A stretch of 37,951 bases of DNA from Chrysochromulina tobinii (Eukaryota): positions 1-37,951 of the forward strand of contig JWZX01002472.1 in NCBI GenBank assembly GCA_001275005.1. The letters run 5' to 3'. This document shows positions 1,740 through 37,100 of this stretch, piece by piece (the stretch's first letter is position 1; each line of letters begins with the position of its first letter). The translations under genes were made by a program, and so were the position numbers. The notes beneath the pieces were generated by a model. It was not told the DNA's origin, did not search any database, and saw nothing but the letters and a program-made list of their open reading frames with translations.

Positions 1740-3275
1740 TTATGCGCTACCACCAGCGCCACTTCCCGTGGAGTGCCGTGATGATGGCGCGCGTCGCTTG
1801 GGTGCGGGTGGATCCTGCTCTTCCCATGGCTCTTCCGTGAGATCATCCTCGGTCCGAACGCGCTTCTTGGCGTCGGCGAGCTGCTTGCGCAACGCCTCAA
1901 TCTCCGCGTTGGCAGCGGCCTCCTTCGCCTCGGCAGCCGCCTTGGCAGCCGCCTCCTTCACGTTGGCTGCCGATTCCGCCTCAGCGACGGCGGTGGCCAA
2001 TCGTGCCGCCATCTGCTCGGCCATCCGATCGAGCTCTGCCTCGTGGTCCTCGATGCGCCGCCGCAGGTTGAGGTTTGGCACCAGCGCCGTACCGAGCGTC
2101 GCGCGCGTGAGCGGGCTGAGCGGGTGCGGGCCGCGGAGGACCTCCTCAATCGCGCTGCGCTCGTAGGAATGGCCATCGGATGCGACCACTGGGTCCTTCA
2201 TCTTGTCGTACGTGATCGGGCATGTGAAGTCGGCAGGCAGCGGCACGTTCAGCCCGACGGACTCGCGCCGCGCGCGCCGTGCCGCCGCCGTCTGCAGCTC
2301 CTCAAGCCGCGAGCGCACGCGCTCCGTCACCGCCTCGTCCGCCGCGCCGACGGCCGCCGCCGTTGCCAGCGCCGCCTCCAGCGCAACAACAGTCTCACCA
2401 GCCTCAGCACGATGCAGCCGCGCCGTCGCAACTGAACGGAGCTTGCGCTGCAGCTCAGAGAAGGCGTGGAGAGGCGCGGCGGTGTTGGCGACGGCGGCAA
2501 GGATGGCATCGCTGCAGGTGGGGTTACATGCGAGGACGCACAGTGTTTCTGCTGCAGTTATCGCCGCCTCCGACTCAGCCCCCGCATGCAGCAACGCCAC
2601 GAGCGGCGGGATGGCGCCCGCCTCTCGGATGGCGTCTTGGTTGGTGGGGTTGTCGTGGGCGAGGAACCACAACGCGCAAGCCGCATGCTTCGCCGCCTTC
2701 GACTCAGCCCCCGCATGCAGCAACGCCACGAGCGGCGGGATGGCGCCCGCCTCTCTGATGGCGTCTCGGTTGGTGGGGTTGTCGCAGGCGAGGCTCCCCA
2801 ACGCGCCTGCCGCATTCTCCGCCGCCTCCGACTCAGCCCCCGCATGCAGCAACGCCACGAGCGGCGGGATGGCGCCCGCTTCTCGGATGGCGTCTTGGTT
2901 GGTCGGGTTATTGCCGGCGAGGATCCACAACGCACAAACCGCATTCTCCGCCGCCTCCGACTCAGCCCCCGCATGCAGCAACGCCACGAGCGGCGGGATG
3001 GCGCCCGCCTCTCGGATGGCATCGCGGGCAGTATCACTGGTGTCGGAGAGTCTGAGCAGGGTCGATGCAGCCATTGAGGCTCCGCCGCTAAGCTTGAGCA
3101 GCTGCACAAGGCTTGGGATCGCCGGCCGGACGGCCTCACAATCGTCAGCGCTCATGCCAGAGTCAGTGAGCTCATGGAGCTCCTTGGCATGGCGCTCATC
3201 GAAATGGCATCGCTCCTCGGCGTGGCGCTTCAAGGTCGCCGTTACTCGCTCGGTTAGCGGGACGCGGGACGACAT
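1740..3275 (-). CDS. Armadillo-repeat protein with C-terminal U-box (putative E3 ubiquitin ligase)
   Basis: ARM repeats DAIREAGAIPPLVALLHAGAESEAA...; U-box LPADFTCPITYDKMKDPVVASDGHSYERSAIEEVL...SPLTRATLGTALVPNLNLRRRI; coiled-coil tail; ATG at 3275; no intron needed. Confidence 0.92.
   Translation of the reverse strand: MSSRVPLTERVTATLKRHAEERCHFDERHAKELHELTDSGMSADDCEAVRPAIPSLVQLLKLSGGASMAASTLLRLSDTSDTARDAIREAGAIPPLVALLHAGAESEAAENAVCALWILAGNNPTNQDAIREAGAIPPLVALLHAGAESEAAENAAGALGSLACDNPTNRDAIREAGAIPPLVALLHAGAESKAAKHAACALWFLAHDNPTNQDAIREAGAIPPLVALLHAGAESEAAITAAETLCVLACNPTCSDAILAAVANTAAPLHAFSELQRKLRSVATARLHRAEAGETVVALEAALATAAAVGAADEAVTERVRSRLEELQTAAARRARRESVGLNVPLPADFTCPITYDKMKDPVVASDGHSYERSAIEEVLRGPHPLSPLTRATLGTALVPNLNLRRRIEDHEAELDRMAEQMAARLATAVAEAESAANVKEAAAKAAAEAKEAAANAEIEALRKQLADAKKRVRTEDDLTEEPWEEQDPPAPKRRAPSSRHSTGSGAGGSA
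2562..3020 (-). repeat. 129-bp near-identical tandem repeat (43-aa ARM units, about 3.5 copies)
   Basis: gagcggcgggatggcgcccg recurs at 2601, 2730, 2859 and 2988 (period 129). Confidence 0.95.
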
Positions 3276-7305: not shown

Positions 7306-7915
7306 TTATGTATTAGATGAAGAAGCCGTCGTGCGTACTCCTCTGGGTCGACATGTCTCGTGCATGCGTTGCGGGTCCACACATGTGCAGTGTCCATGGC
7401 AGTGTCGCACTCCGGGTGCGGCGGGGCGGACGTGCGTCGAGTTGGGGGCTCAGGGGCACATGAGGCCGAGTGAGGACATCTCGCCAGCTCCCTGACAGTT
7501 CATATCTGTCTCAGGTAATTTACACCATACTATCCGCGGTACCGCGCGACTCGGCACTCGCGGCGCGGAGCAGCAGTTCTGTAAACGTCACCATGCACGC
7601 ACGTCGAGAGGGGCCCCGTATACACCTCGTGGCTGTAGCCGTTGCAGCTGTGCGGGTCGCGGGCCGTGACTCATACCAGGAGCCTGCTGTTGTTGTTCGC
7701 AGAGAGACCGCAGCACTTCGACGAGCCTACCCCGTACCATAGCGCAGGCGTCAGCCGGCCGGTCCTGACGGCGAGGCGAGCTTGCATGCTGATTGCGACT
7801 GATGAGCACTGATGGTCTCCCCCATCAGCCGGCTGGTCCTGACAGCGACGCGACCATCCGTGCAGTAGCCGCCATCCGTAGACGCCCTCGCCGCACACGC
7901 GCCTCAGAAAGCGAC

Positions 7916-11469: not shown

Positions 11470-11602
11470 TGCTGGGGTAAGTAGGGGTGGGCCACCCTAA
11501 TATGGTTAGTAGGGTTGGCCCACCCTAATATGGTAAGTAGGGGTGCGCCACACCCCTAATATGGGTACCGCTCGTGCGCCTCTCAGAGTTGCCTAATTTG
11601 GG
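11470..11602. repeat. Cluster of CCTAATATGG-containing short tandem duplications
   Basis: cctaatatgg at 11496, 11524 and 11555 and cctaatttgg at 11592, within ~28-31-bp units (taagtaggggtgggccacc...). Confidence 0.85.
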
Positions 11603-11621: not shown

Positions 11622-12535
11622 CTAACTCGACGTAGCAAACCTGCCCAGATTGAGGTCGTCAGTCAGCTTCAGAAAGGCTTCGAACGAGAACTCTTTCTTG
11701 CCGCCCACGTCCTTGTCAGCGTAGCCGAGCATGCGCGCCCAGTGCTCCGCGTAGTCTGCGCGCTCGGACGTTGGCGTGCTATCCATGGCCGTCTTGAGCT
11801 CCTTCTCGTCGAGGAAGCCGCTGCCGTCCGTATCGATCTGCTCGAAGAGAGCGGAGCGTCCATGAGAGGCCATGAGAGGCCATGAGAGGCCATCAGTGGC
11901 CATCAGTGGCAATCAGTGGCCATCGACCTTGTTGAAGAGAGCCCGAATTTCCTCGTCTGACTTTTGGACATCCTCGATTAGGGCGCCGGTCTTGACCGCC
12001 AAGATCAGCTTGCGGAACGCATCCTCATCCAGCTCCTTGCCGTCCTTGAAATCCTTCCGCGTGTACTTTGGGATCGATTTGCGTAGCTGCGGCGGGCGGC
12101 GGGCAGCGGCGGGCAGCACACACACGACGCGCTCGGTGGCACGAGAAGCGGCGGAGATCTCACCGCGAAGATGAGAGAGGCGCGCGCGCGCTGAGTGCCG
12201 GCGTACGACACGGGGCACAGGCTGAGGTGGCCGGCGGTAGCACGCACCACGCGGTCCTCTGGACATATGGTCGCCTTGAGCGACTTGATCGCCTTCTTGA
12301 GCTCCTCGAGCGAAATGCCTCCGCTGTGGTCCTCATCAAACTCCTCAAAGATCTTTTTGATGTCCGCGACCTCCTCAACGTGCATCCCGGAGAATTGTGC
12401 TTCAAGGTCGCGCGACTTGCGGCGCGCCTTTTGGCCCGCTTCGTTCAGCTTTGCGGAAGCCTCTGTAGCGTCCGCCGTAGCGCTGGCGGCCGCCGCAGCC
12501 ATGCTGTTCAGTTGGTCTGCGAGCACAGTAGGCAT
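11622..12535 (-). CDS. EF-hand calcium-binding protein; exons 12535-12248, 12086-11928, 11837-11622
   Basis: EF-hands FDEDHSGGISLEEL and IDTDGSGFLDEKEL plus degenerate ADKDVGGKKEFSFEAF; both GT-AG introns (12247-12087, 11927-11838) splice in frame. A further 3' exon near 11350-11470 is possible. Confidence 0.85.
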
Positions 12536-14232: not shown

Positions 14233-16102
14233 ATGCTACGGCTGTCTGAGGGAGGGGCGCGACGTCTGGCCTCTATACATCATCACGTCATTGTCGCCCT
14301 CTTGGTGCAGCTCCCCGTGGTCGCGGGGCTAGCTCTTGGTCCGGCCATGCGGCATGTGAACATGGTTCGGCCCGTTCTGGCCCCTCGCATCGTGCCGCCT
14401 GTGGCCAAGGTTGCGCAATGGCAGCATGCTGAGCTTGCCTACGAGCTGCTGCACGAGCGCGTGCAGGCGTCTCGCGTCGGGCCGCTAGTCCATTCAGCGC
14501 TGAAACTCCTCCAAGATGTCAGTTGGCACTGGAGTGACTGGGTGAAGCCACTCGCCGAGTCGCTCTGGCAGCCGCTCGACATTGCGACCATCGTGGGCGT
14601 CTGGGCACTGCGAGGGCCAGCCTCGCGCCTCGCGCACAGCATGGCCAGCGACATTGCGCCCGCCGAGTGGAAGGGCCCCTATGAGGAATCGATCTTCCCG
14701 GTGCTCGCGGAGGTCGCACTCCAGTTTGCCAGGCTCTTCTTCGTGCTGCTCCTCGCGGATGCGGCATGCTGGACGCTCTCGTGCACCAAATTGATGTCCA
14801 AGATTGTCGCGGGCGAGATCCCGACCGTGCTCGACACGGTCGGCTACTCGTTCCTCTCTGGCTTCCTCTTCACGCGCGTCAAGACCCATCTGGTCCGCAA
14901 GTCAGCTGGCTCGAGTGCCGCTGAGAAGCTCAAAGGAATCCCCGCGACGCTCGATCGGCTCTGGGGCGCTCTGATCTGGTTCTTCGCGGGCGCGGGCTGC
15001 GCCCAGGTGCTCTCAGTCGAGCTCGGCTTCCGTCTCAAGTCAGTCCTAGCCCTCGGAGGCTTTTCTTCCATTGTCGTCGGCCTCGCGTGCCAGACGCCCC
15101 TCGCCAACGTTGTCAAGGGACTCATCATCGCAGCGAGTGGCTCCTTCGGCACCGGCGACAAGATCGCAAGCGCTGGCATGACGGGGGTCGTCGAGGACTT
15201 TGGGTGCGTGCGACTTTGCGCCTGATTGCACCAGGATGGCACCGGAATGCACCCGATTCAGAGGGCTCCGCACCTGATGTGGCACCTGATTATGGCATCT
15301 GATGTGGCATCTGATGTGGCATCTGATTGCACTCGCCTGTCTGAGTGCTCTGCATCTGTGCCCGGGCGCATCAGGTGGTACCAGAGCCGACTGCGCACGG
15401 AAGAGAACGATCTCGTCACACTGCCCAATAGCCTGCTTGCCGAGAAGCAGGTGATTGCCACTGATTGCCTTTGCTTGCCTCTGAACGCATCTGATTTTAT
15501 CTGATTGTGTATCGGTTTGCATCCGATTGCATTCGATTGTATCTGATTGTATCTTTTATCTGATTGCATCTCCGATCGGCAGATTGTCAACCTCTCGCGT
15601 CGGACGGCGAAGAAGGAGGTGGTGAGGCTCCGACTCAAGTACGATGATCTGGCAAAGATCCCGCAGGTGATTGCAACTGATCCGAGTGCACCGGAGTGCA
15701 CCGGAGTGCACCGGAGTGCACCGGAGTGCACCGGAGCGCACCGGAGTGCCTCTGATTTCAACCGATGGCATCCGATGGCCCCTGAGTGCTCCTGAGTGCG
15801 CCTGATTGCAGTTGATCAGCCAGATCCGCGAAGTCGTGGCGAGGATGCCCAATCTCGCTCCGGGGAAGCCGGGGGAGGCGTACCTGGTCGATTACGGCAA
15901 GAGCTCGATTGAGCTCGAGGCCTCCATCAACGTGGCCACGACGGCGCCGAACAAGCAGATCCGGCAGGACTTCCTAATCGAGATCGCGAAGGTGCTCGCA
16001 CGGACGGGGGTGCGCTTCGAGAAGCAGAGCGGTGGCAGCGGCGGCGAGCTCGGCGGCGGCGGCGAGGAGGACGAGGAGGACGAGGAGGACGAGGAGGACT
16101 GA
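14233..16102 (+). CDS. MscS-family mechanosensitive channel; exons 14233-15203, 15375-15450, 15583-15666, 15812-16102
   Basis: TM3-like VLALGGFSSIVVGLACQTPLANVVKGL; beta domain FGTGDKI...GVVEDFG|WYQSRLRT...VTLPNSLL...|IVNLSRR; acidic tail. Three GT-AG introns restore the frame. Confidence 0.9.
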
Positions 16103-16613
16103 AGAAGAAAGAAGAGCGTTCAGTAGAGGGAAGGGGCATCATACAGTATCCACATACGCTTCAGAGTTGCGGCACGGGGGCAGCCGAGCGAGCAGGGGGC
16201 AGCGAGCAGAACAAACTAAATGGGCGCCGGGCGCTTTTCGCTTCGCACGGCTTTAGGCCTGCTGGTGGCCCGCTTTATAACATTCAGGTGGCCGTTGATA
16301 CCGTCATCCCACGCAGCGGGCGAGGGTGGCACTGGCAGCGCCGCTGCTTCCTGCATTCTTTGTGGTAAGTCGTAAGTGGTGTGGTTACGAAGTGTGGACC
16401 TGACTAGAGGACGGGACCTGACGGTCCGCACCGCTGTGCGAAAGGGAAACCGGAAAGCCGGGGAGCAGCTAAACCGTTTTAGTTAATCCGCACCGCACGT
16501 CTGGTCTCTCATAGGTTGGTACGTGCGGTACCGTACAGCCGGTATTCTATTAATCTGAAATGAATTATGAGAGACATCGCATAGCTGTCATCTCGTGGAG
16601 CAGATCTCGTCGC

Positions 16614-19600
16614 TCATCGGCGCCTAGCCGCTCGGGCTGCCTTGAGCTGGCGCGCATGCCAGGCCTTGGCGACCTCATCGGACCGGTGGGCAAGCACCTG
16701 TGCACGATGAGATGCAATCAGATCCAGTCAGGGAGGTCATCAGGGAGGCTATCAGGGAGGCCGTAAAGATGCCATCAGGGCTCATCAACCCACCTGCACG
16801 ATCTGTGGAAGCGTCCACACGTCACCTCGCGCCGTGGTGAGCACGCCACCTCGCGCCTCGGCCACGTCCAATGTGCTCACTACGGCGCGCTCACTACGGC
16901 GCGCCTCGGCCACGTCCCACGTGCCGATCACAGGCCACGCGCCGTGCTGGGCAAGCGGTGCGCCCAGCGCCTCCACCTCCCGAAAGGCGGGGGCGCGCGC
17001 GCCGTGCTGGGCGCGAGGGGTGGCACCGCTCGCGACAGCGCCCCCGCTCGTTCCGGCGGCGGCGGCGGCGGCGGCGGCGCGTACGCTCTCGTGGTCTTCC
17101 CACAGCTGGAGCAGCGGCTCGCTTGGTGTGCCGAGCAGTCGGAGGAGTGCATGCAACGGCCGGCACACCTCGTCCACTCGCGTCGGAGAGACTCCCTGGG
17201 GCACGGCGCTCGCGTCCTTGGCGATGAAAAAGGCGCGAAGCTGCTGCAGGTCCTGATGGGCACCAACGGCACATCCGGAGGGTCGAAAGTGCGCTGATTG
17301 CAATCAGGGGCTCAATCAGGGGCTCAATCAGGGGCTCAATCAGGGGCTCAATCAGGGGCTCAATCAGTGCGCAATCACCTGATGAACCAACGGCACATCC
17401 GGAGGGTCGAAGGAACGCTCCGGGCCGCTGTGGAGCAGTACGTGCTCGATAGCGTGGCAGCACTCGCGTAGGATGGCGTCTACTAGCCGTTCACGCAGCA
17501 TCGGCTGTGGCGTACTGCGCACGATCGTGCCCAGCGCCGTGTTGAGCGCCTTGAGCACGTCGCGCAGCCGGGCGTCGGCCACCCGGGGCTGGTACAGGTA
17601 GGAGAGCATCGAGGGCTGCGGGGGACGAGTTATCAGGCGGTACTCAGGGAGGCAATCAGCGAGGCAATCAGGGAGGCAATCAGGGGCCATCACGGCCCCC
17701 CTCCGGCACGCCATCAGGCGCCATCAGACGCCATCACAGGATGTACCTGCAAGTCAACAAGGACCACCTTGGCGCCGAGCAGCTCGCACACGCGCTCGAG
17801 GCACACCAGCTGCGCCTGACGCGCCCTCGCAAAGCACGCCGTCGTTGGCGCCGTCATGGGCGAATCCCCTCCGACGCCCCCCCCGGTGCCCCCCCCGACG
17901 CCCCCCCCAAGCAGGTGCGCCTGCAGCGGCGTCACGAGCTCCTCGTAGAGGGCCGGTAGAAGCTCCCACACCCGCCCGAGCGACGCGCAGCGCACGAGCA
18001 GCGAGGTCAAGGGGAGATTGCGCGCCGTCTCGAGCACCTTCTCGTCACGGCGCCGGTTGGCAACCTCACTACTGCGCCAGAGTGGCCACTGCGTGCAGCC
18101 AGTGCAATCAGATGCGATCAGATGCAATCAGAGTGGCCACTGCGTGCAGCCAGTGCACTCAGATGCAATCAGAGGCCACCGGTGGCAATCTGTGTCAATC
18201 AGGTGCACTACGATGCAATCACCTGCCGCGTGAGCCATCCGAGCGAACCGCCGCCGACGCCACCAGTGCCGCCGCCAGCGTCCCCCCCGCCCGACTCCGC
18301 CGCCGCCGCCGCCGCTGCTGCTGCCCCCGCCCCCCCCACCAACGCCGGCTCCCGCGCCGACTGGGGGAAGCGCGACAGACGGGAGGAGAGCACTGAGCAC
18401 AGAACCATTCTCCGCGCCGACTCCAGCGACGTTCTGCGCGGACGCACGCACGGCGGCGGCGTCCACTAGATCATGCGTGAGCGCCGCCGCCAAGCCGGCG
18501 AAGGAATCGTCCGTGTGATCGAGGAGGCGACGGAGCCCATTTCGCATGAGCGCGTCAGGCAGCCGCATACGCATCAAGCTTAGGAACGAGGCGCGCACCT
18601 GTGGAAAAGGGGGAAAAGGCGCCGTGGTGAGCACTTGCATGCTCAGCATCAAGCTCAGGAACGAGGCGCGCACTATCTCGAGCAGCTCGTCGACGACGCC
18701 AGAATGGAACGCGCCTCGGTCGGCATCGATCGGCTCCCACCGAAACCCATGGGCCTCGCCTTGGCGCTCGCCACGGCGCCGGATCCGAGCGAGCACTTCG
18801 TCAAAATGAGACTGCTCATTAGCGACCCACGCGTTCACGAGAGGCTCGACGTGCGTGAAGGCCGCCGAGAGCTGCGCGTGCGTCCACAACGGGTGGCGTC
18901 AGTGGGCATCAGCCATCAAGGCAATTAGAAGAGGCAATGACCTGCGCATCCTTCCAGAGTGGCCCATGATGAGGGAGGCAATCATGATGAGGGAGGCAAT
19001 CAGAGGCCATCAAGGCAATTAGAGGAGGCGATGACCTGCGCATCCTTCCAGAGTGGCCCAAAGCGCATGTTCATGCGGCTCATCGCACGCCAGAGCGGCA
19101 GGAACTTTTCAAAGGCGCCGAGTTGCGATCCGCGACGTCGAGCGAAGAGGAGGAGCGCGCGTAGTGCGTGGCTGACCTCCTTGAGGAAGAGCTGATGAGA
19201 GGGGGCAATCAGATGTCATCAGAGGCCATCAGAGGCGGAGCGCGCGCAGTGCGTGGCTGACCTCGATGAAGAAGAGCTGGCGAGGGGGGCAATCAGTGGC
19301 ACTCAGGTGCAGGTCAGGGCCATTACCTGCCCCCACTCAGCCGTGGCGAGCTCGGCGATTTGAGGGGCGTACTGTGCGAAGACCGGATGGAAGAGTGTCG
19401 ACTCGAGCTCGAGCTTCGAGCTCACGGACTGTGTGAGCACGAGTAGCTGATGAGGGGGGCACTCAGTGGCACTCAGTGTGAGCACGAGTAGCTGATGCGG
19501 GGGGCACTCAGTGGCACTCAGTGTGAGCACGAGTAGCTGATGCGGGGGGCACTCAGTGGCACTCAGTGTGAGCACTAGTAGCTGATGCCGTCTCGGGGCA

Positions 19601-22600
19601 TAGATCCATGTCAGTGGCACTCCAAGGCACTCGGGGAGGCGAATGGAGGCACTCGGACCCACCCAGAGGCACTCAGAGGCACTCAGAGGCACTCAGAGGC
19701 ACTCAGAGGCACTCAGAGGCAATCAGAGGCAATCAGAGGCAATTGGAGGCAATCAGAGGCAATCAGACCCACTCAGAAGCACTCGGAGGCAATCCCACCT
19801 GATCCAAATCGAGGCATTGCTCCGTGTCCGCCTCGTCCCAAACGCCCTCATCCTCCGCCGCTGCCGCCGCTGCCGCCGCTGCGCCATGTGCCACACTCCC
19901 AGCACGGTACGCCTGCACGCACCGGTCGAGGGGGGCACAATCAGTGGCCATCAGTGGCCATCAGTGTCACAATCAGTGGCCATCAGTGGCCATCAGGAGA
20001 GCCATCAGTGGCAAGGAGAGGCGATGACCTGGCCGCACAGGTCGAGCCAGCAGCGGCGGATGGACGAGCGGCAGAGTGCCGTCACTTCTTCAAGCACCGG
20101 AGGCGGCGGACCGCCGAGCACAAGACCCCAATTAGGCAAGCCCTCGCCGTCGTACCATGCGGGCAGTGACATCCACGGAACTGTGAACAGCGCAGGAGGC
20201 AGGGCGGGCACCGGCGAAGGTTGCGACCCCAATCGAGCTCGGCTCATCTCGACGTTGCCGTTGGTTTCGGCGTCGTGGTGGGCACCTTCGGCGCTCACCA
20301 CGGCGCCTTCCGCCGCAGTGTCGCTGGCAGCGGAGGCGGCGCCGTCGCGAGCGCCCCGTGCCCACCACGACGCCATGGACGCATTCGTTGAAGCGAGCCA
20401 TTGCCAGACGGCAGCCGAGCGGCTCGTCTCGTCGCCCATATTAGGCAACTCGCCACCGCCGCCCTCGCCTTCCCTGCCGCCCTCGCGGTCGCCGCCGTCA
20501 CCGCCATCGCCGCCGTTGCCGCCGTCGCCGCCCTCCTTCACAGAGTCTTCACAGGCCGCCTTCGTACGAGTCTCACCCGCCTTCACAGAGTCGACTACCA
20601 AATTAGGGTCGACGACCCAACTCAGCGCGTCGCCGCTGACCTTTGTGAGGCCGACGCTCGTGTAGTACTCTGGAGGGAGGAGACTTCCTAATATGGGAGG
20701 GAGGAGACTGCCTTTCGCGCCCGAGTCCTCCACGTCGGCGATTGGTTGCGGGGGGGGAGGCGTGGGAGAGGGCGGTCGGAGTTCGGTACTGCCTAATATG
20801 GGAGAGGGCGGTCGGAGTTCGGTACTGCCTAATATGGGAGAGGGCGGTCGGAGTTCGGTCGCTCGGGCGGCGAGAGGAGCGCCGTGGTGAGCACATGCAT
20901 GCAGGGCGCCACCCGCGTCGCTCGCTTGGGCGGCGAGTGGAGCGCCGTGGTGAGCGCCGCCGCTCTCGCCGCCGATCGTCGTGAGGAAGGGCTGCTCCAC
21001 CGGATTGCCTAACATGGACTGCTCCACCGGATTGCCTGGCTTGACCCGCGCTGTCGAGAGCTTCTGTGGCGTCAAACCTCCACTGGCCGCCTTGGCCGCT
21101 CTCTCTGCATGCACGTGCTCACCACGGCGCTCCGCAACGTCATCATCACTGGCCGCCTTGGCCGCTCTCGCTGCTTCACGCGCCGCCTCGGCGTCCTCTG
21201 CATGCAAGTGCTCACCACGGCGCGTCGCTCTCGCTGCTTCGCGCGCCGCCTCGGCAGCCGCCGCCGCAAGCTCAATGATAGCGGCGACAGCCTCACTGGC
21301 CTCCTCCGGCGACGAGCGCTCGCATTGTCCCAAATTAGGGTCTGTCGAGCCCGGGCCCACCGGTGGCGCCACGTCATCACCACGGAGGAGCTCGGGTGCG
21401 CGTGAGGGTAGTGGCCGCGGGCACTCCTCCTCTGCATGCACGTGCTCACCATGGCGCTCCTCCACGTCCTCTCGTGAGGGTTGCGGCCGCGGGCAGGCCT
21501 CCTCCTCATCCGCTGCTGCCGCCTTGACGAGCTCCTCGTCCGCCGCCACCTCCACCACGCCCTCTTCCCACTCCTCCTCTGCATGCACGTGCTCACCACG
21601 GCGCTCCGCCACGCCCTCTTCCCACGCGATGGCGGCTTCGTCCACCACCACCAGCGGCACGCAGGCTGCGTTGAGGGCGACTGCGTCGAGGTCGTCGGCG
21701 CCGTGCTGGGCGTCACTCCTAAATAGGCAGGTGGAGCTCGGGACGGCGCTCGGAAGGTCAGGGGGTAGACCGGGGAAGGCGCCGTGCTGAGCGGAGATGT
21801 GGGGAGGTTGGGCGGCGATGCGAGCGCTAGCAGCGGGGGAGACGGAAGAAGTGTGAATGTGAATGCGAGCACTAGCAACGGGGGAGACGGCAGAGGTGTG
21901 AATGTGAATGCGAGCGCTAGCAGCGGGGGAGACGGCAGCGGAGGCGGCAGTGGAGGCGGCAGCGGAGGTAGAGGCGATGGCGGAGGCGGCAGCGGAGGCG
22001 ATGGCCGCCGCTGCGGCGTCCGCGTGCGACGAGCTGCCCGCGACGACGCCACTCAGCCCAGGGATCGCCATGCCAAGGACCGACCCAGCCGCCGAGGGCG
22101 TCACCTCGGGGGGCATCTCGGGGGGCACCTCGGGGGGCTCTAGGTATGCCGAGTACAGGTGCACGTACGCGTCGAGCATGTGCTGGATGAGTGCAACGGG
22201 CGCCGTCGGCAAGGTCGAGTGGAAGTTGCCGAGCAAGAGCGAGAAGTGGTTACGCATGCAACGGCAGATCTCATCGAGGGCGCGCGCCTCGACGCTCGCG
22301 ACGGCGCCCTGGTGCGCCGGCGTGCCGGGGTGCGGCGCCGTGTTGGGCGATTGCGCCGTGTGGGGTCGTGGCGCCGTGTTGGGCAGTGGCGCCGTGTTGT
22401 TGGGCAGCTGCTCGAGGCGCCGTAGCAGCGCGGCGGCGAGGTCGATGCTTTCGGGGTGGCGTCGGTGCATCGCAAAGGTGGCCTCCGCGAGGCAGATCCG
22501 GTGCACCTCGATGGGGACTCGTAGGCAGCGTCGCACGCGCGCGAGCAGGATGACGATCGCCTCCGTGCAGTCGAGAGGCACACCATCGTCACCAAATGTA

Positions 22601-22975
22601 GCGAGGAGCAGCAGAGCGTACAGCTTGAGCGAGATTGGGTAGGGCAGCTCCAGACGATGCTCGAACGCCGCCGTGGCCACCTCGTCCTCGAGGGAAGCGT
22701 ATGCCTCCCACACGCACCCGTGCAGCGCGCGCACCAGCGAGGTGTACTCGACCTTCCACAGATGAGACGCGCTCCGAGATGGGATCTCCGCGCTCCGAGA
22801 TGGGATCTCCGCAGGGAGCACCGGGGTCCACTTAGCCGTTGGCGGAGGTGCACCTCGAGAAGGCGCCGTGCTGAGCGCCGTGCTGACGGAGGGCACGGGA
22901 GCGAAGATCGGCGTCGTCGTGGCGCACGAGATGCTCAAGCTATTGCTCAAGCTATTGCTGAATGGCGGAAGCGGC

Positions 22976-23008
<33 letters not shown>

Positions 23009-23820
23009 GAGGCGGTGGAGGCGGCGGCGGTGCGCGCGGCCGTTTCGGCTGCCTCCACAGCGAGGGTGGACGCCTCGAGCGCCGTCTCGAGCGCTGCGAT
23101 CGCAGGGTACCCTGCCACGTGCTGCAGGATGCGCTGGCAATGGCGGCGGAGCTCGGCGATCAGTTTCGTCACGTGTGGAGTGTCGCCCGGCGCACCGCCG
23201 CCGCCGGCGTCGCGGCCAGCCGCTGCGCCGGAGCTGGCGGCCAGCGCGCTCGCGGCGCTATTGGCAGCCTCCGGCCCGCAGCCCGCGCCCGCGCCGGCGC
23301 CGGAGTAGGAAGACGCGGACGCGCCCGAGTGGCGCAGGACTCCGATCAGCCCGGCGAGCGTGAGCGCGATCTGCCGCTCGGCCCACGCGCAAAAGGCCTC
23401 GGGCGATGCAAAGTCCGCCGGTCGCTTCTGTACGAGTAGCAGCAGCCTGTAGTGAAGGTACGGCTGCAGCTGCTCGAGGTGGGCCGGGTCGTCGTAGCCC
23501 TCCAGACGCAGCGTCGCCGCAATCACCTCGGGCAATGTGGAGGGCGTGACGCCGAGAAGATGGCCAAGCACGTGCCGGAGCGCGCGATTGTCGCGCTCCG
23601 ACAGCTTGTGCAGCTGCGCCGGCATGCACAGAAGCAGCGCCTCGCAGCTCAGCATGTGCAGCTGCTGCCAGTCGAGCCGCAGGTCGTCCTCCACGTCGGC
23701 AAAGGGCAGCCGGCCCTCGCCGTGCACGCGCGCCACCGGCTGCGAAAGGGCCATGTCCTGTCGCGAGCCCGTCCGGCTCGAGGGTTGCTCCTTGGGCAGC
23801 ATGCTGGCGAAGAAGTCCAT
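16614..23820 (-). CDS. PATROL1/DUF810-like Munc13-homology (MUN) vesicle-tethering protein; exons 23820-20029, 19912-19799, 19446-19327, 19191-19036, 18871-18674, 18598-18223 (1-nt frameshift near 18330), 18088-17747, 17615-17379, 17252-16794, 16697-16614
   Basis: Collinear DUF810-type blocks: RPADFASPEAFCAWAERQIALTLAGL, PYPISLKLYALLL, VHRICLAEATF, LFHPVFAQYAP, RWEP, KVVLVDL...LY, HVLLHSGPERSFDPPD...DLQQLRAFF, VLAHRSDEVA. Nine GT-AG introns mapped by hand. Confidence 0.85.
19431..19588 (-). repeat. 45-bp tandem repeat duplicating the acceptor site and exon start (4 copies)
   Basis: gtgtgagcacgagtagctgatg at 19431, 19476, 19521 and 19566 (last copy with one mismatch). Confidence 0.95.
19613..19795 (-). 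repeat. Intronic decamer array (GCACTCAGAG/GCAATCAGAG on +)
   Basis: More than 10 tandem 10-nt units inside PATROL1-like intron 19447-19798. Confidence 0.95.
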
Positions 23821-26206: not shown

Positions 26207-27767
26207 ATGTCGGTCACCAGCCTAAGCGCAACCTTGCCACGCCCTACGAGCCCCACCCTATTCAACGGCACGCTCTGGGGCTCGGTCGAGTTCGAGCGCA
26301 AGGAGAAGCGCCTTCCGGGGTACGAGGAGGTGATGGATCGCATGAACGCAAAGTGTGGACGGCGCATCCAGTCGGCTGCGGTCATGCTGGACCGCGACGT
26401 CGAAAGAATCGAAAGAGGCGAGAAGTTCGCATGCAAGCTTGCGGATAAGCGTAAGGCTGATCTCAGCTCGATGGAGCTGCTCGACCACATGCGGCAGAGT
26501 ACCGCTCGCTCGGCGCGGAGGACGCTCCTCAGGTCGCGCGACGGTCGCGTGGCCGGCAACTCGCGGTCGCCCACGCTGCGGACCTCGCAGACCGACCAGC
26601 AGCTCTCCGAAGCCATCCGCGAGACGGCGCGAGAGAGCCTCCGTAAGGACGAGTTACGGAAGAGGCAAGAGTGGGCCCAGCGCGCCGTCGACCTTGTGAG
26701 TGCTGCCCGCCACAGGCACAATGCGCCTTCCTTGTGTCCCCATCCCACCGCCACCGCCCCGCCCCGCCCTGCTCGTCACCTCGCGCGTTGTGCAGGCGGA
26801 GCTGCGTGCGTCGGAGCTCGAGTTCCAGCGGCAGATGGCGGAGGCGCGTAAGGAGATGGCAGCGCAGCAAGAGCGCGAGCAGATGCAGCGCAGGGTCGAG
26901 ATCGAAGAGGCGCGCAAGCGAGGCCAGGTGATGGCCACTGATCACCTTCGTTAGCCTCTGATGGCCTCAGAGGCCCCCTGATTGCATCTGACGGAACGCC
27001 CGCGCCCTCGAGGCCTGCTGACGGCAGCAGGACAACTCGTCCTAGCGGGAGGCCTCTAATGGCGTCTGATGGCGTCTGATGGCGTCTGATGGCGTCTGAT
27101 GGCCTCTAATGGCGTCTGATGGCGTCTGATGGCGTCTGATGGCGTCTGATGGCGTCTGATGGCCTCTGATGGCCTCTGATGGCCTCTGATGGCCTCTGAT
27201 GGCCTCTGATGGCAGCTGACTGTATCTCCGTGCTCGCGAGGGTAGCTGGACAACTCGACCGAGCGCGAGGCTGAGCGTATGGTCGTCGAGAAGAAGCGGC
27301 AGGAGCACTCGATGGTGCTCAAAGAGGCGATGGACGCTCGTCTCAGGGAGAAGGAGGCGCGCGAGCTAGCACGCAAGGAGCGCTCTGTGGCCGAGGCGGT
27401 CGCGCGCGAGGCCGCCGACGCGGTGCGCCGTCGCGAGCGCGAGAGCCTCAGGCTGATCACCGCGTCCAACCGGGCAGCAGAGCTAGCGCGGGCGTCGGAA
27501 AAGGTGTGGCTGGAGGCGCAGGCGGCGGCGTCGAGCGCCGAAGCAGAGCTGCTCAAAAAGCGCCAGGCACTGAGCATCCTTTATGGCGACGAGCCCCGCC
27601 CCGTCGATTCGCTCCTGGCCATCGACAAGCTCAAGAAGCGCCTCGACGAGAAGCGGACGCGCGAGGCGAGCGCCAAACAAGGCCTCGAGATGGCGACCGC
27701 GGCGGCGGCGGCGGCAGAGAGGAAGGCGGAAGAGGCAGTGGGCGTGGCGAAGACGCCCCGCCACTAA
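26207..27767 (+). CDS. Charged coiled-coil protein; exons 26207-26695, 26796-26927, 27246-27767
   Basis: Introns GTGAGT...TGCAG (26696-26795) and GTGATG...GGTAG (26928-27245) join three ORF pieces in frame; E/R/K/A-rich helical sequence. Confidence 0.75.
27049..27213 (+). repeat. Intronic decamer array (GGCGTCTGAT/GGCCTCTGAT) x ~16
   Basis: Directly visible tandem 10-mers within intron 26928-27245. Confidence 0.97.
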
Positions 27768-29653: not shown

Positions 29654-30031
29654 GGCGCAGGGATAGTGGACACAGCGCCCCGATCCTCTTTCCGTTCGGG
29701 GACGAGGACGGATCATGGTATAGGTTGCTCGACTACATGTAGCTTGTAGAATCACTTGACGGATGTGCAGCGCCAAGTGTGTGCGTAATCGGTGAGCACT
29801 GTGCTCTCCGCTCCGGCTTGAAAATAATGCGAACACCAACCCGCGCGGCGAAAACCGTAAACCCGCGAAATAACGCGTCGCTCGGCACGCGGGGTCTGGG
29901 CGTTCGCGACGGTCGCGCGCGCTTACTCGTCGCGTCGACACGAGGGTCAGGATGGGCAACGCACCGCCGAGGCTACAGCTGCTGAGACGCTCCACATCAA
30001 ACCCATCCGATACCAATTTTCACGCCTCATC

Positions 30032-34191: not shown

Positions 34192-37100
34192 TCACGGTGC
34201 AATCTCGATCGAGCTGCCTCCACGCTTCAGGATCTTGGAGTTGACGAGATTCGGGCGCGACCCCTCCGACGATGCGTCGAGGGCCTTGCGCTGCTGACGG
34301 AACTTGGTGAGCGTAGGCTCCGTGTACCTGAGGTGTGAAGAGGTGTGAAGAGGTGTGAAGAGGTGCAAGACGCGCGACACGACGGGTGTCAATCGAACAC
34401 AGCCCGGCCAGAACTGCAAATAGGCTGTGGGGAAGCTCGATGTGGCTGTGGGGAAGCTCGATGTGGCTGTGGGGAAGCTCGAGGTGGCAGTGGGGAAGCT
34501 CACCCGTTGGGCGCCGTGGTGCCGGAGAAGACGAGCTCGAGGGCAGCATGCCACTCCGGCCCATCGAAGCGCGGCGCGAAGGCTTTGTAGGTCGGGTCCG
34601 ACGCGTTCTGCTCGTCGACGAGGTGGGCGATTCGATGGAAGGCCTCGAGCACCTGCTCGTCGCTCACGACGCCGTGATGACGCCAGTTGGCAATGTGCTG
34701 GCTGGAGATGCGAAGGGTCGCGCGATCTTCCATGAGCTGCACGCCCTCGAGGTCCGGCACCTGTAGGGACGGGAGCATGGGTGGGAAGGGGAGGGTGCGG
34801 GGATGGGGTGGGATTTGGGAAGGGGTGGGTGCAGGGAAAGAGGAGGGTGTGGGGACAGGGGAAGTGTGGGGATGGGGAAGGTGTGGGGAAGGTGAGAGGC
34901 TGCGGGTACGTACCTTGGAGCAGCCCACGCCTTGCCCGACCCAGCGAACGACATAGCCGAGCAGAGACTGCACGTTGTTGTCGAGCTCCTTTTGGATGAT
35001 CACCGGGGTGAGCGCCTCGCGTTCGCTCGATGTCATCAAGGGAGGCGTGATCAGATCCGCGAGGAAGAGGGCGGGCGTCACTCCCTCAGACTTGTGCGCC
35101 GTCGCCATCGTCCCCTGGACGCTCGCCACGCTCGTCTGCAGGTAGTGCAACGCGTGCAGCGTGGCAGCGGTGGGCGACGGCACCCAAGCCGTGGAGGCGC
35201 CGGCCGCGATCTGCGCCCCCTTGGTGCGCAGCAGACCTGATAAGGGGGGTGATCGAGGAAGACGTGATGAGTGGGGCAATCAAGGAAGACATGATGAGGG
35301 ACGCAATCAAGCCCAATCAGAAGCAATCAAGGAGCTTGGGCAGGTACCTGATGAGGGGCGCAATCAGTCGTGCTCAGACGCACTCGGACGCAATCAGGGA
35401 CTCTCAGCCCCTGGGGTATCCTAATATGGGTGCGCGGCAGACCGTTCATGTTGTCCGGCTCCGCCCACATGCCCTTCCCAATCTGCCCTTTGCCGACGAG
35501 GCGGTGCGCGAGGCCCGCGGCGACGTTACTCTTCTCGTAAGCTTGCAGCCAAGGCGCGGCCTTCATCGCCCCGTTGTGCTTTGGCTTGACAGGGCCCGCA
35601 TGCATGCAAGTGTGGATCTCATCAGCGGTACCTGATGAGCGTGACCATCAGGCGAAATCAGGCGAAATCAGGCGAAATCAGGCGTTCATCAGGCGTGCAT
35701 CAGTCGTCATCAGGCATCATTAGTGGCACTCTCAACATACGATCGAGGAAGCCGGTGTTGATGAAGACGAGGCGCTGGCGCGCCGCCTGCATCGCACTCG
35801 CGAGGTTCACAGACGTGCGCCTCTCTTCGTCCATGATGCCCATCTTCATCGTCAGTGGAGGCATGCCAAGCGCCTTCTCGACGGCTGCGAAGAGATCCAC
35901 GGCGAGTCCGACCTCTTCGGGACCGTGCATCTTCGGCTTGACGATGTACACGGAGCCCTCGACGCTGTTGCGCACGTCGCCCGCCTCGCGGCGCACGCGA
36001 ACGTCGTGCAGCGCGCACGCGGCCGTCACCATCGCATCGACAAAGTGCTCAGGCACGGGCGCGCCCGCTTCCGTCGTCACCATGTCGGTATACTTGTGCA
36101 TGCCGACGTTGCGTGCGAGGAGAAGCACTTGCGCAGACATCGAGAAGTCGTCGCTCGAGGCGTCCTTGGAGGGCCAGTGCTTCGGCTGGTGGAACGCGAG
36201 CCGCGGATTGAGGGTGCGGTTCACTGTCGTCCCATTCTTGCCAGGGAACTCGCACGAGAGCGTTCGGTTCATCAGTCCTAGCCAGTTCGAGTACGCGGCG
36301 ACCTTGTCGTCGACGTCGACGGTGCACGCGCTGTCCTCAAAGTCGCAGATCGTGGTCAGAGCACTCTCGAGACGAACGTCGACGATGCCGGCAAGCGTCG
36401 CACGCCCAACCCCCTTCTCCTTGCCGTCGATGACGATCTCGCAGTGCAGCCCATTCTTACGGAGCAAGATCGACCATTTCTCACCCGCCCGCGTGCCGTA
36501 GCCGACAAGCTGGTCGGGGGCCGCCAGTCGAAGGGGTGCACTCTTCTCAGCGCCAGCCACCTTGGCGACGAGAGCGCCGTCGGCGATCGACAGGTTGGTC
36601 ACTTCTGACCAACGTCCCGCGGCAAACGGGAAGGTCTCATCGAGGAATTTGTGCGCCATCTCGAAGACCTGGACGCCGCGAGCGGGATCGTAAGGGCCGG
36701 GCTGGGGCGCTGGGAGCACTGCATTGGTGCCGTAGAAGGCGTCGAGCAGGGATCCCCAGCGTGCGTTCGCCGCGTTCAGCAGAAAGCGACTCTTGTCGAC
36801 CGGGCAGACTAGCTGTGGGCCCGCCACTCTGGCGATCTCGTCACCGACGCGCGCAGTCTCAATCTCGAAAGCTCCTGGCGAGGGCTGCAGGTAGCCGATG
36901 CGGCGGAGGAAGTCGAGCTGGGTCTCGCCCGTCTTGCTCTTGTGCCACGAGTCAATCTGCGACTGGATGGCATCGCGCTGCTCCAGCAGCTGTTGGTTGC
37001 GAGGCAGCAAGTCCTGCACGATCCCGTCGAGGCCCGTCCAGAATTGATCGGGGGTGCAGCCGGTGCCGGGTAGAACCTTGGTATCGATGAACGACTGCAG

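What the first reader, a model, noticed from the sequence alone, without database searches (positions are those of the whole stretch)
16698..20028. Introns that contain echo copies of their own flanking exon ends
Seen: most introns of the PATROL1-like gene repeat adjacent exon sequence. Intron 17253-17378 ends with a ~30-nt copy of the upstream exon end (TTCGACCCTCCGGATGTGCCGTTGGT..CATCAG). Intron 18599-18673 starts with a copy of the next exon (GTGCGCGCCTCGTTCCT.AGCTTGATGC). Intron 18872-19035 holds a full copy of exon end plus donor. Introns 18089-18222, 19192-19326 and 19447-19798 hold 1-3 copies of acceptor plus exon start. Introns 16698-16793 and 19913-20028 end in mimics of the upstream exon end. 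The same occurs in unrelated genes: EF-hand 11838-11927, coiled-coil 26928-27245 and malate synthase 35237-35442. Established: duplication of an AG|GT proto-splice site can create an intron, but documented cases are rare. Inference: a genome-wide, ongoing duplication process tied to splice junctions is creating or remodelling introns here.
Basis: partly seen in the sequence, partly recalled or inferred. Interest (0 to 1): 0.85.

Follow-up and report, generated by a model that had tools for sequence, protein, structure and literature searches.

The report
Introns born between long exon copies
In this alga many spliced introns consist of a short shared filler sequence plus a roughly 26-base copy of the neighbouring exon, which likely marks insertions that duplicate their target and so would create new introns across the genome.

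Summary
The echoes are real. Seven carry significant exon copies; 16698 is not significant and 17616 has none. In 0.66 Mb of related contigs, 53 of 109 perfect-motif acceptors, 26 of 55 second-motif acceptors and 32 of 98 filler donors have splice-anchored copies (controls 0.2-0.5%). The copy (median 26 nt) brackets a shared 20-52-nt filler module. The same copy-plus-filler also sits unspliced, in frame and antisense in exons (7 of 7 multiples of three), so the process is not confined to splice sites; selection likely imposes the splice geometry. Orthologue ORFs on 17-kb and 97-kb contigs run unbroken across all nine positions between them. Best reading: insertions with unusually long target duplications make new introns, and later local duplications remodel them. 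The enzyme and template are unknown, and no empty allele was found. It uses the logic of Introners and Daphnia break-repair introns, whose duplications are only 3-12 nt. This scan noted the footprint before on another piece of this genome (e1-2577349). New variant; interest 0.75.

The parts
16615..23820 (-). PATROL1/MHD2-like gene, 10 exons (end coordinate of the stop approximate); one unresolved 1-nt frameshift in exon 18223-18598
   Evidence: Pfam PF25761 E 1.2e-10; Prymnesium parvum homologue P0018; translation
17253..17378 (-). Intron with filler first, then a copy of the upstream exon end that supplies the acceptor (17262-17287 = 17386-17411, 26/26)
   Evidence: RNA joint in 4 of 4 runs
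18599..18673 (-). Intron starting with a 28-nt copy of the next exon that supplies the GT donor (18646-18673 vs 18571-18598, 27/28), then the 24-nt 'B' module and a pyrimidine tail ending CAG
   Evidence: RNA joint in 4 of 4 runs, 17 letters fit either side
18872..19035 (-). 55-nt duplication across the donor (53/55); the spacer is two copies of the 20-nt 'A' acceptor module lacking the final G; weaker older echo at the 3' end
   Evidence: (p=0.0125)
18089..18222 (-). 45-nt duplication across the acceptor (43/45), including 11 exon bases
   Evidence: (1 of 4 runs)
19192..19326 (-). 59-nt duplication across the acceptor (51/59); allele L127 has the same echo with 40 nt more filler
19447..19798 (-).
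   Evidence: (p=0.0025)
19913..20028 (-). Intron ending in a decayed copy of the upstream exon end (16/19)
   Evidence: p=0.0025; splicing implied by X13 record 5
16698..16793 (-). Filler intron; claimed mimic not significant
   Evidence: p about 0.045; p=0.08
17616..17746 (-).
   Evidence: RNA joint in 4 of 4 runs
20855..21625 (.). Five unspliced copy-plus-B-module inserts in exon 1 (offsets 63, 66, 63, 72, 54 nt, all multiples of 3; four antisense to the gene)
   Evidence: unspliced RNA piece X14-14 covers 21133-21964
16852..16924 (+). Antisense B-like insert with a 25-nt duplication (23/25), offset 48 nt, kept in a spliced RNA contig
   Evidence: X14 record 6
35237..35442 (-). Malate synthase intron starting with a copy of the next exon (14/15)
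   Evidence: RNA joint in 3 of 3 runs; DNA contig spans it
26928..27245 (+). Coiled-coil gene intron with an internal copy of acceptor plus exon start; splicing inferred from reading frame
11838..11927 (-). EF-hand gene intron ending in a weak copy of the upstream exon end (17/21); splicing inferred from reading frame

Best explanation
The echoes are likely long target-site duplications (median 26 nt) left when short shared filler modules are inserted, likely by microhomology-primed repair synthesis at staggered breaks that copies the ends of other introns. Shown: a copy of 13-55 target bases brackets a filler built from a few genome-wide modules (A: 10-mer CTGAT repeats ending in a fixed 20-nt acceptor; B: a 24-nt core; AB: a 52-nt donor-bearing module). 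Inferred: in coding sequence only three outcomes survive selection. (i) The copy starts with GT/GC and gives the donor while the filler gives the acceptor (18599, 35237). (ii) The filler gives the donor and the copy's AG gives the acceptor (17253, 19913, oldest layer of 19447). (iii) The insert is unspliced and in frame (exon 1). Cases (i) and (ii) are precise new introns. The same insertion, or simple slippage between the repeats and look-alike exon bases, then adds copies across existing donors and acceptors (18089, 18872, 19192, 19447), which are tolerated because the outermost donor and last acceptor are used (shown by RNA). Each new intron would be a further template, so the modules would spread without an autonomous element.
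For: Geometry: 66 of 132 motif acceptors have a copy of the next exon (control 1.8%), 56 of the 66 starting within 2 nt of the exon start; 117 of 132 are followed by GT/GC against 14% for any CAG. Donors: 32 of 98 (control 0.2%). Motif and echo decay together: 53/109, 15/40, 6/18, 3/11, 0/3, 1/25 with rising motif mismatches (control 0.5%). Filler comes from elsewhere: the spacer in 18872 is the A module with no source in that intron, and the AB module recurs in 8 loci. Splice-independent events: 41 of 57 B cores are bracketed by repeats (control 2%); the 28 splice-compatible ones show no frame bias (9/13/6), while 7 of 7 in reading frames are multiples of 3. Copy and filler lengths are anti-correlated (rho -0.45, n=33, p=0.008), as a minimum intron size predicts. 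A filler unit begins inside the copy in 11 of 45 junctions (control 7.5%). Gain: P0019 (17-kb contig) is unbroken across 7 positions, P0022+P0007 (97-kb contig) across 8, P0015 and P0020 across all 9.
Against: No empty allele: in the seven overlapping locus pairs inspected every intron that could be compared was shared, though these pairs were ascertained through the motif. Orthologues are only 38-45% identical and the tree leaves the window's place open, so loss in a common ancestor of the relatives is not excluded; P0015 and P0020 could be transcripts. A arrays are 192 sense to 2 antisense, none called intergenic (52 ambiguous, 36 at contig edges). Random break repair does not predict this without strong selection or a link to transcription. 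About half of the perfect-motif acceptors show no echo. No enzyme or template molecule was identified.
Confidence: 0.5

Rival explanations
1. Same insertion-with-duplication anatomy, but the inserts are very short non-autonomous retroelements (SINE-like or intron RNA) placed by target-primed reverse transcription using a non-LTR retrotransposon's enzymes; in effect an Introner with long, variable target duplications.
For: A-type fillers have one fixed end and a variable other end; the AB module has both ends fixed in 8 loci; strong sense bias 192:2. Variable duplication length is typical of non-LTR insertion (recalled, no call).
Against: Repeat units differ from locus to locus; fillers with opposite fixed ends exist; no poly(A); no longer parent copy was noticed in 0.66 Mb (by eye). 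The reverse transcriptase search of the source contigs could not be run.
Confidence: 0.27
2. Remodelling only: introns pre-existed. Slippage between intronic repeats and look-alike exon bases duplicated splice junctions, and precise loss of one half, or partial conversion by spliced RNA, left the one-sided forms. No intron gain.
For: Four of nine PATROL1 introns and 34 of 103 anchored events are junction-spanning duplications; many of the 32 donor events repeat the donor; microhomology at junctions; near-constant intron length; arrays lie almost only in sense introns.
Against: Does not explain antisense in-frame exonic inserts, the 88% GT/GC after perfect motifs against 5 of 25 after decayed ones, the joint decay of motif and echo, or intron-free orthologue ORFs.
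Confidence: 0.15
3. Classic tandem duplication of an AG|GT exon segment creates the intron; repeats expand inside it later.
For: Some copies contain AG|GT internally (35 A-class 'mid' events among 249 raw events); the mechanism is documented (PMC3443670).
Against: Copies are much shorter than the introns (median 26 vs 79 nt); 40 of 69 primary-like copies are not preceded by AG; the filler is shared between unrelated genes.
Confidence: 0.06
4. Assembly artefact or chance similarity in GC-rich repetitive DNA.
For: Short-read contigs break at these repeats; no long reads were seen.
Against: RNA joints, imperfect copies, an independent allele, bridging contigs, controls at or below 2%.
Confidence: 0.02

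Closest known systems
Introners that recruit one splice site from the target-site duplication (Gozashti et al. 2022, PMC9860276; Roy et al. bioRxiv 10.1101/2020.10.14.339549; passages read)
   Same: One splice site is carried by the insert and the other comes from the duplicated target, in either arrangement; splicing is precise; phase bias is expected. A marine Chrysochromulina MAG has Introners.
   Different: Their duplications are short and fixed per class (3-9 nt; 4 nt in that Chrysochromulina MAG) and members are similar end to end. Here duplications are 13-55 nt and variable, and most fillers share only 20-24-nt modules plus locus-specific repeats.
Daphnia pulex new introns from staggered double-strand-break repair (Li et al. 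2014, PMC4202315; abstract and sections 19, 25, 27, 33 read)
   Same: [quoted passage not shown]
   Different: Daphnia exon-shared repeats are 4-12 nt (33 cases) and shared motifs are AT-rich 4-17-mers. Here repeats are two to five times longer and the filler is GC-rich, splice-signal-like and shared genome-wide.
Tandem genomic duplication of an AGGT segment (reviewed in Yenerall and Zhou 2012, PMC3443670; passages and section 8 read)
   Same: Exon sequence duplicated into the intron supplies splice sites.
   Different: There the intron is the duplicate itself and both sites come from AGGT; here most of the intron is filler and usually one site comes from it.

Membership tests
Introner (TSD-bearing) | [quoted passage not shown] | tested here: met
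Introner (TSD-bearing) | Short duplication of fixed length (3-9 nt) | tested here: not met
   median 26 nt, quartiles 19-33, n=69; 11-49 nt at donors
Introner (TSD-bearing) | Family members similar along the whole intron | tested here: inconclusive
   Holds for the 52-nt AB module in 8 loci; not for A-type fillers or the window's introns, which share only modules
Introner (TSD-bearing) | Terminal inverted repeats (present in many, not all) | tested here: not met
   Only a 5-nt inverted pair inside the A motif; folding no better than shuffles, z -0.2 to -0.6
Introner (TSD-bearing) | Presence/absence polymorphism or empty sites in close relatives | tested here: inconclusive
   Absent in 38-45% identical orthologue ORFs; no empty allele in seven overlapping pairs
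Introner (TSD-bearing) | Autonomous partner element | not testable with these tools
   No genome held; source contigs not searchable
Staggered-break repair introns (Daphnia type) | Direct repeat of the adjacent exon end at the far end of the intron | tested here: met
   longer than the 4-12 nt
Staggered-break repair introns (Daphnia type) | Secondary internal duplications in young introns | tested here: met
   18089, 18872, 19192, 19447; 34 of 103 events
Staggered-break repair introns (Daphnia type) | Insert without a recurring source sequence | tested here: not met
   Exact 20-mer in about 2400 stored stretches (estimate; many are reassemblies of one culture); B and AB modules
Tandem genomic duplication (AGGT) | Intron consists of the duplicated exon segment only | tested here: not met
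   Filler typically about 50 nt
Non-LTR/SINE insertion by target-primed reverse transcription | Fixed 3' end, truncated 5' end, variable duplication | tested here: inconclusive
   Fits A-type acceptor fillers but not donor-first arrays; feature list recalled, no call

The most novel reading that the evidence does not exclude
A self-propagating intron factory without a transposon: a repair or reverse-transcription activity primes on a target GT or AG, copies the end of another intron in trans, and closes the break with a 15-50-nt duplication, so that most surviving events are precise new introns and each becomes a new template. It would account for a large share of this alga's introns and for low-complexity peptide inserts in its proteins.
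Probability: 0.35. Interest if true: 0.92.

Novelty: new variant of a known kind. Interest (0 to 1): 0.75.

Why it matters
The source of most new spliceosomal introns is an open question; Introners are the only established mass mechanism (stated in bioRxiv 10.1101/2024.06.04.597373, passages). Here an alga that grows in culture carries many young introns whose birth record (duplication, filler, later layers) is still readable, with spliced and unspliced outcomes of the same event in one gene. Gain rates, the enzyme and the filtering by selection become directly testable. Similarity-based Introner screens would likely miss most of these introns (inference). The extra donors and acceptors are also a natural test of splice-site choice and a trap for gene annotation.

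Tried and rejected
No whole genome was held, so 'genome-wide' rests on 133 motif-ascertained contig loci, 108 of the 134 fetched loci being kept after removing 26 redundant or allelic ones. The A motif was not found in viral contigs or prokaryote genomes; the B motif gave one viral-collection contig. A word-based homologue search with one exon found nothing. A search for related loci with alignment A1 was not possible, so no orthologue DNA was read and intron absence is inferred from unbroken ORFs. Reverse transcriptase search on source contigs failed. Hairpin priming: modules fold no better than shuffles, rejected as support. No Rfam match. L042/L094 looked like a presence/absence pair but diverge without rejoining, rejected. 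The first strand classification mislabelled intron-dense regions as non-coding and was replaced; its codon model was checked only on training pieces (90% of 162). The generic repeat survey mixes in protein repeats and partial copies and was used only for examples. A few of the 69 primary-like events are tandem arrays or protein repeats. The tree did not polarise gain against loss. Literature: ten full-text searches showed no paper describing long exon copies in haptophyte introns; I saw listings and abstract starts only, apart from the papers named. The Emiliania genome paper was not held; my recollection that it reports 10-11-bp intronic repeats is unchecked. Supplements of the Introner papers, which list families per genome, were not read and could include this organism.
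Full report
Setting. The window is GC-rich eukaryotic DNA. The gene at 23820 to about 16615 (minus strand) has a PATROL1-like TPR domain (PF25761, E 1.2e-10) and a Prymnesium parvum homologue, so the organism is a haptophyte. No call named the species; Chrysochromulina is my recalled guess from GC content (63.4% in PMC4580454, passages). No genome was held.

Splicing. Support is 4 of 4 runs for four introns, 3 of 4 for three and 1 of 4 for 18089. The listed joints use the outermost donor and the last acceptor. All nine introns are phase 0 if exon 18223-18598 (376 nt) has a one-base error in its G/C runs, which the contigs do not resolve. The spliced protein is colinear with orthologues at the conserved junctions. 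Four malate synthase introns are joined in 3 of 3 RNA runs.

Echoes in the window. Of 44 flank tests on 22 introns, seven reach p<=0.004 against real coding 40-mers, and 35237 does so against shuffles. An AG-anchored test adds 19913 and a decayed 31-nt copy buried in 19447 (both p=0.0025); 16698 fails (p=0.08). Four geometries occur. The intron ends with the upstream exon end (17253, 19913, old layer of 19447). The intron starts with the next exon (18599, 35237). A copy spans the donor (18872). Copies span the acceptor (18089, 19192, 19447, 26928). Artefact is excluded by imperfect copies, 0.91-0.94 word sharing in 12 DNA runs, bridging contigs and allele L127, which has the 19192 echo with 40 nt more filler.

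Beyond the window. A scan for the 20-nt acceptor motif found about 2400 stored stretches (estimate; many are reassemblies of one culture) and returned 133 loci. Of 132 unique motif acceptors with enough flank and no further filler downstream, 66 have a copy of the next exon upstream (control 1.8%), 52 starting at the first exon base, and 117 are followed by GT or GC (background 14%). After removing 26 redundant loci, echo frequency falls with motif decay from 53 of 109 to 1 of 25 (control 0.5%); 26 of 55 B-type acceptors have echoes. The 69 copies not preceded by a motif acceptor have median length 26 nt in introns of median 79 nt, 24 are perfect, and 40 are not preceded by AG; 34 further events are tandem repeats of acceptor plus exon start. 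At filler donors 32 of 98 have a copy of the upstream exon end ending at an AG (control 0.2%); by eye about 9 are followed by bases that cannot be a second donor and many of the rest repeat the donor. A 52-nt module joining A and B (for example L009:15022-15073) starts at a donor in 8 loci, most with a visible copy of the upstream exon end after it. The sample is chosen by the motif, so these are not genome-wide rates.

Not confined to junctions. Of 57 B cores, 41 are bracketed by a direct repeat (control 2%). The 28 splice-compatible ones have lengths in all frames (9/13/6). Of the 13 others, seven lie in reading frames and all are multiples of three; five are in the stop-free first exon of this gene (the script's score cut-off flagged only four of the seven as open) and may not be independent, and four of those five are antisense. 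The other six lie in closed frames and none is a multiple of three. A further 48-nt event at 16852-16924 is inside a spliced RNA contig. In 18872 the spacer is the A module without its last G, so it was inserted where it does not act as an acceptor. Against a purely random process, A arrays are 192 sense to 2 antisense, none intergenic, 52 ambiguous and 36 at edges; antisense copies carry many AGs, so selection could explain part of this (inference).

Gain or remodelling. P0019, an ORF on a 17-kb contig that itself runs off into unrelated sequence (so likely genomic), crosses seven of the nine positions unbroken. P0022 and P0007, each on a 97,107-nt contig (taken to be the same one), cross eight. 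P0021 crosses six and breaks five residues before 17616. P0015 and P0020 cross all nine but could be transcripts. These relatives are 38-45% identical, fall in two moderately supported groups, and the window's place is open, so gain is the simpler reading but not proved. No empty allele was found in seven overlapping pairs; repeat numbers differ between alleles.

Mechanism. Shown: long variable duplication, shared filler modules, joint decay, junction microhomology above control (11 of 45 against 7.5%), anti-correlated copy and filler length, precise splicing, in-frame unspliced survivors. Inferred: insertion at staggered breaks, copying of other introns' ends in trans, selection as the source of the splice geometry, and secondary slippage. 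I put insertion with long duplication plus selection at about 0.77 in total, split 0.5 for repair synthesis and 0.27 for a retroelement; remodelling only 0.15; plain AGGT duplication 0.06; artefact 0.02.

Comparison. It works like Introners that take one splice site from the duplication (PMC9860276, passages; bioRxiv 10.1101/2020.10.14.339549, passages) and like Daphnia break-repair introns (PMC4202315, abstract and four sections). It fails membership of each on duplication length or filler source. Ten searches found no description in haptophytes (listed under Tried and rejected); passages of PMC8379373 and PMC12480563 and PMC8469720 did not bear on it.

Verdict. Observation confirmed; interpretation partly supported; new variant of a known kind; interest 0.75.

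Noticed in passing
window 7751-7853: Copy-plus-A-filler on the + strand (26/29, offset 74 nt) with no gene assigned, just downstream of a minus-strand gene's stop; could be an intron of an unseen transcript or a neutral antisense insert.
   Followed up: partly
window 18223-18598: Exon is 376 nt between two phase-0 introns; a 1-nt frameshift in the G/C runs near 18284-18347 is either an assembly error or a broken allele.
   Followed up: partly
window 18022 and 18877: RNA contigs of two runs leave the window sequence at the same places with 130-255 loose letters; possibly a paralogue or chimera sharing these exons.
   Followed up: no
window 20127-21727, 35430, 11476-11602: A third short module (CCCA-A/T-ATTAGG) recurs in exon 1 in both orientations, in intron 35237 and in a 28-nt array; it resembles a telomere repeat (recalled), untested.
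   Followed up: partly
window 16698-20028: Eight of nine introns follow a CAG (Gln) codon in phase 0; orthologues mostly lack Gln at 19192, 18089, 17616 and 17253, so exon ends may have changed after gain.
   Followed up: partly
window 34328-34503 and 34761-34913: Two RNA-confirmed malate synthase introns have other fillers (21-nt and 10-nt units; purine/pyrimidine tract) and no significant echo.
   Followed up: partly
window 15204-15823: Three filler-rich introns of a mechanosensitive-channel-like gene (Pfam PF00924, below cut-off) have no clear echo.
   Followed up: partly
window 36094, 29954, 16445: All four laid runs read A at 36094, two lack a base at 29954 and the DNA run lacks 7 bases at 16445: small assembly errors or strain differences.
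   Followed up: no
L001:3880-4060: A contig of the viral collection ends in a duplication with 10-mer filler and a B module; probably host DNA or a chimera.
   Followed up: no
window 2562-3020: 129-nt coding repeat, 3.6 copies, in a gene that looks like an armadillo-repeat/U-box protein (label recalled).
   Followed up: no
L051:769 (+): A rare antisense A array apparently inside an exon, where it would read as a stop-free repetitive peptide.
   Followed up: no
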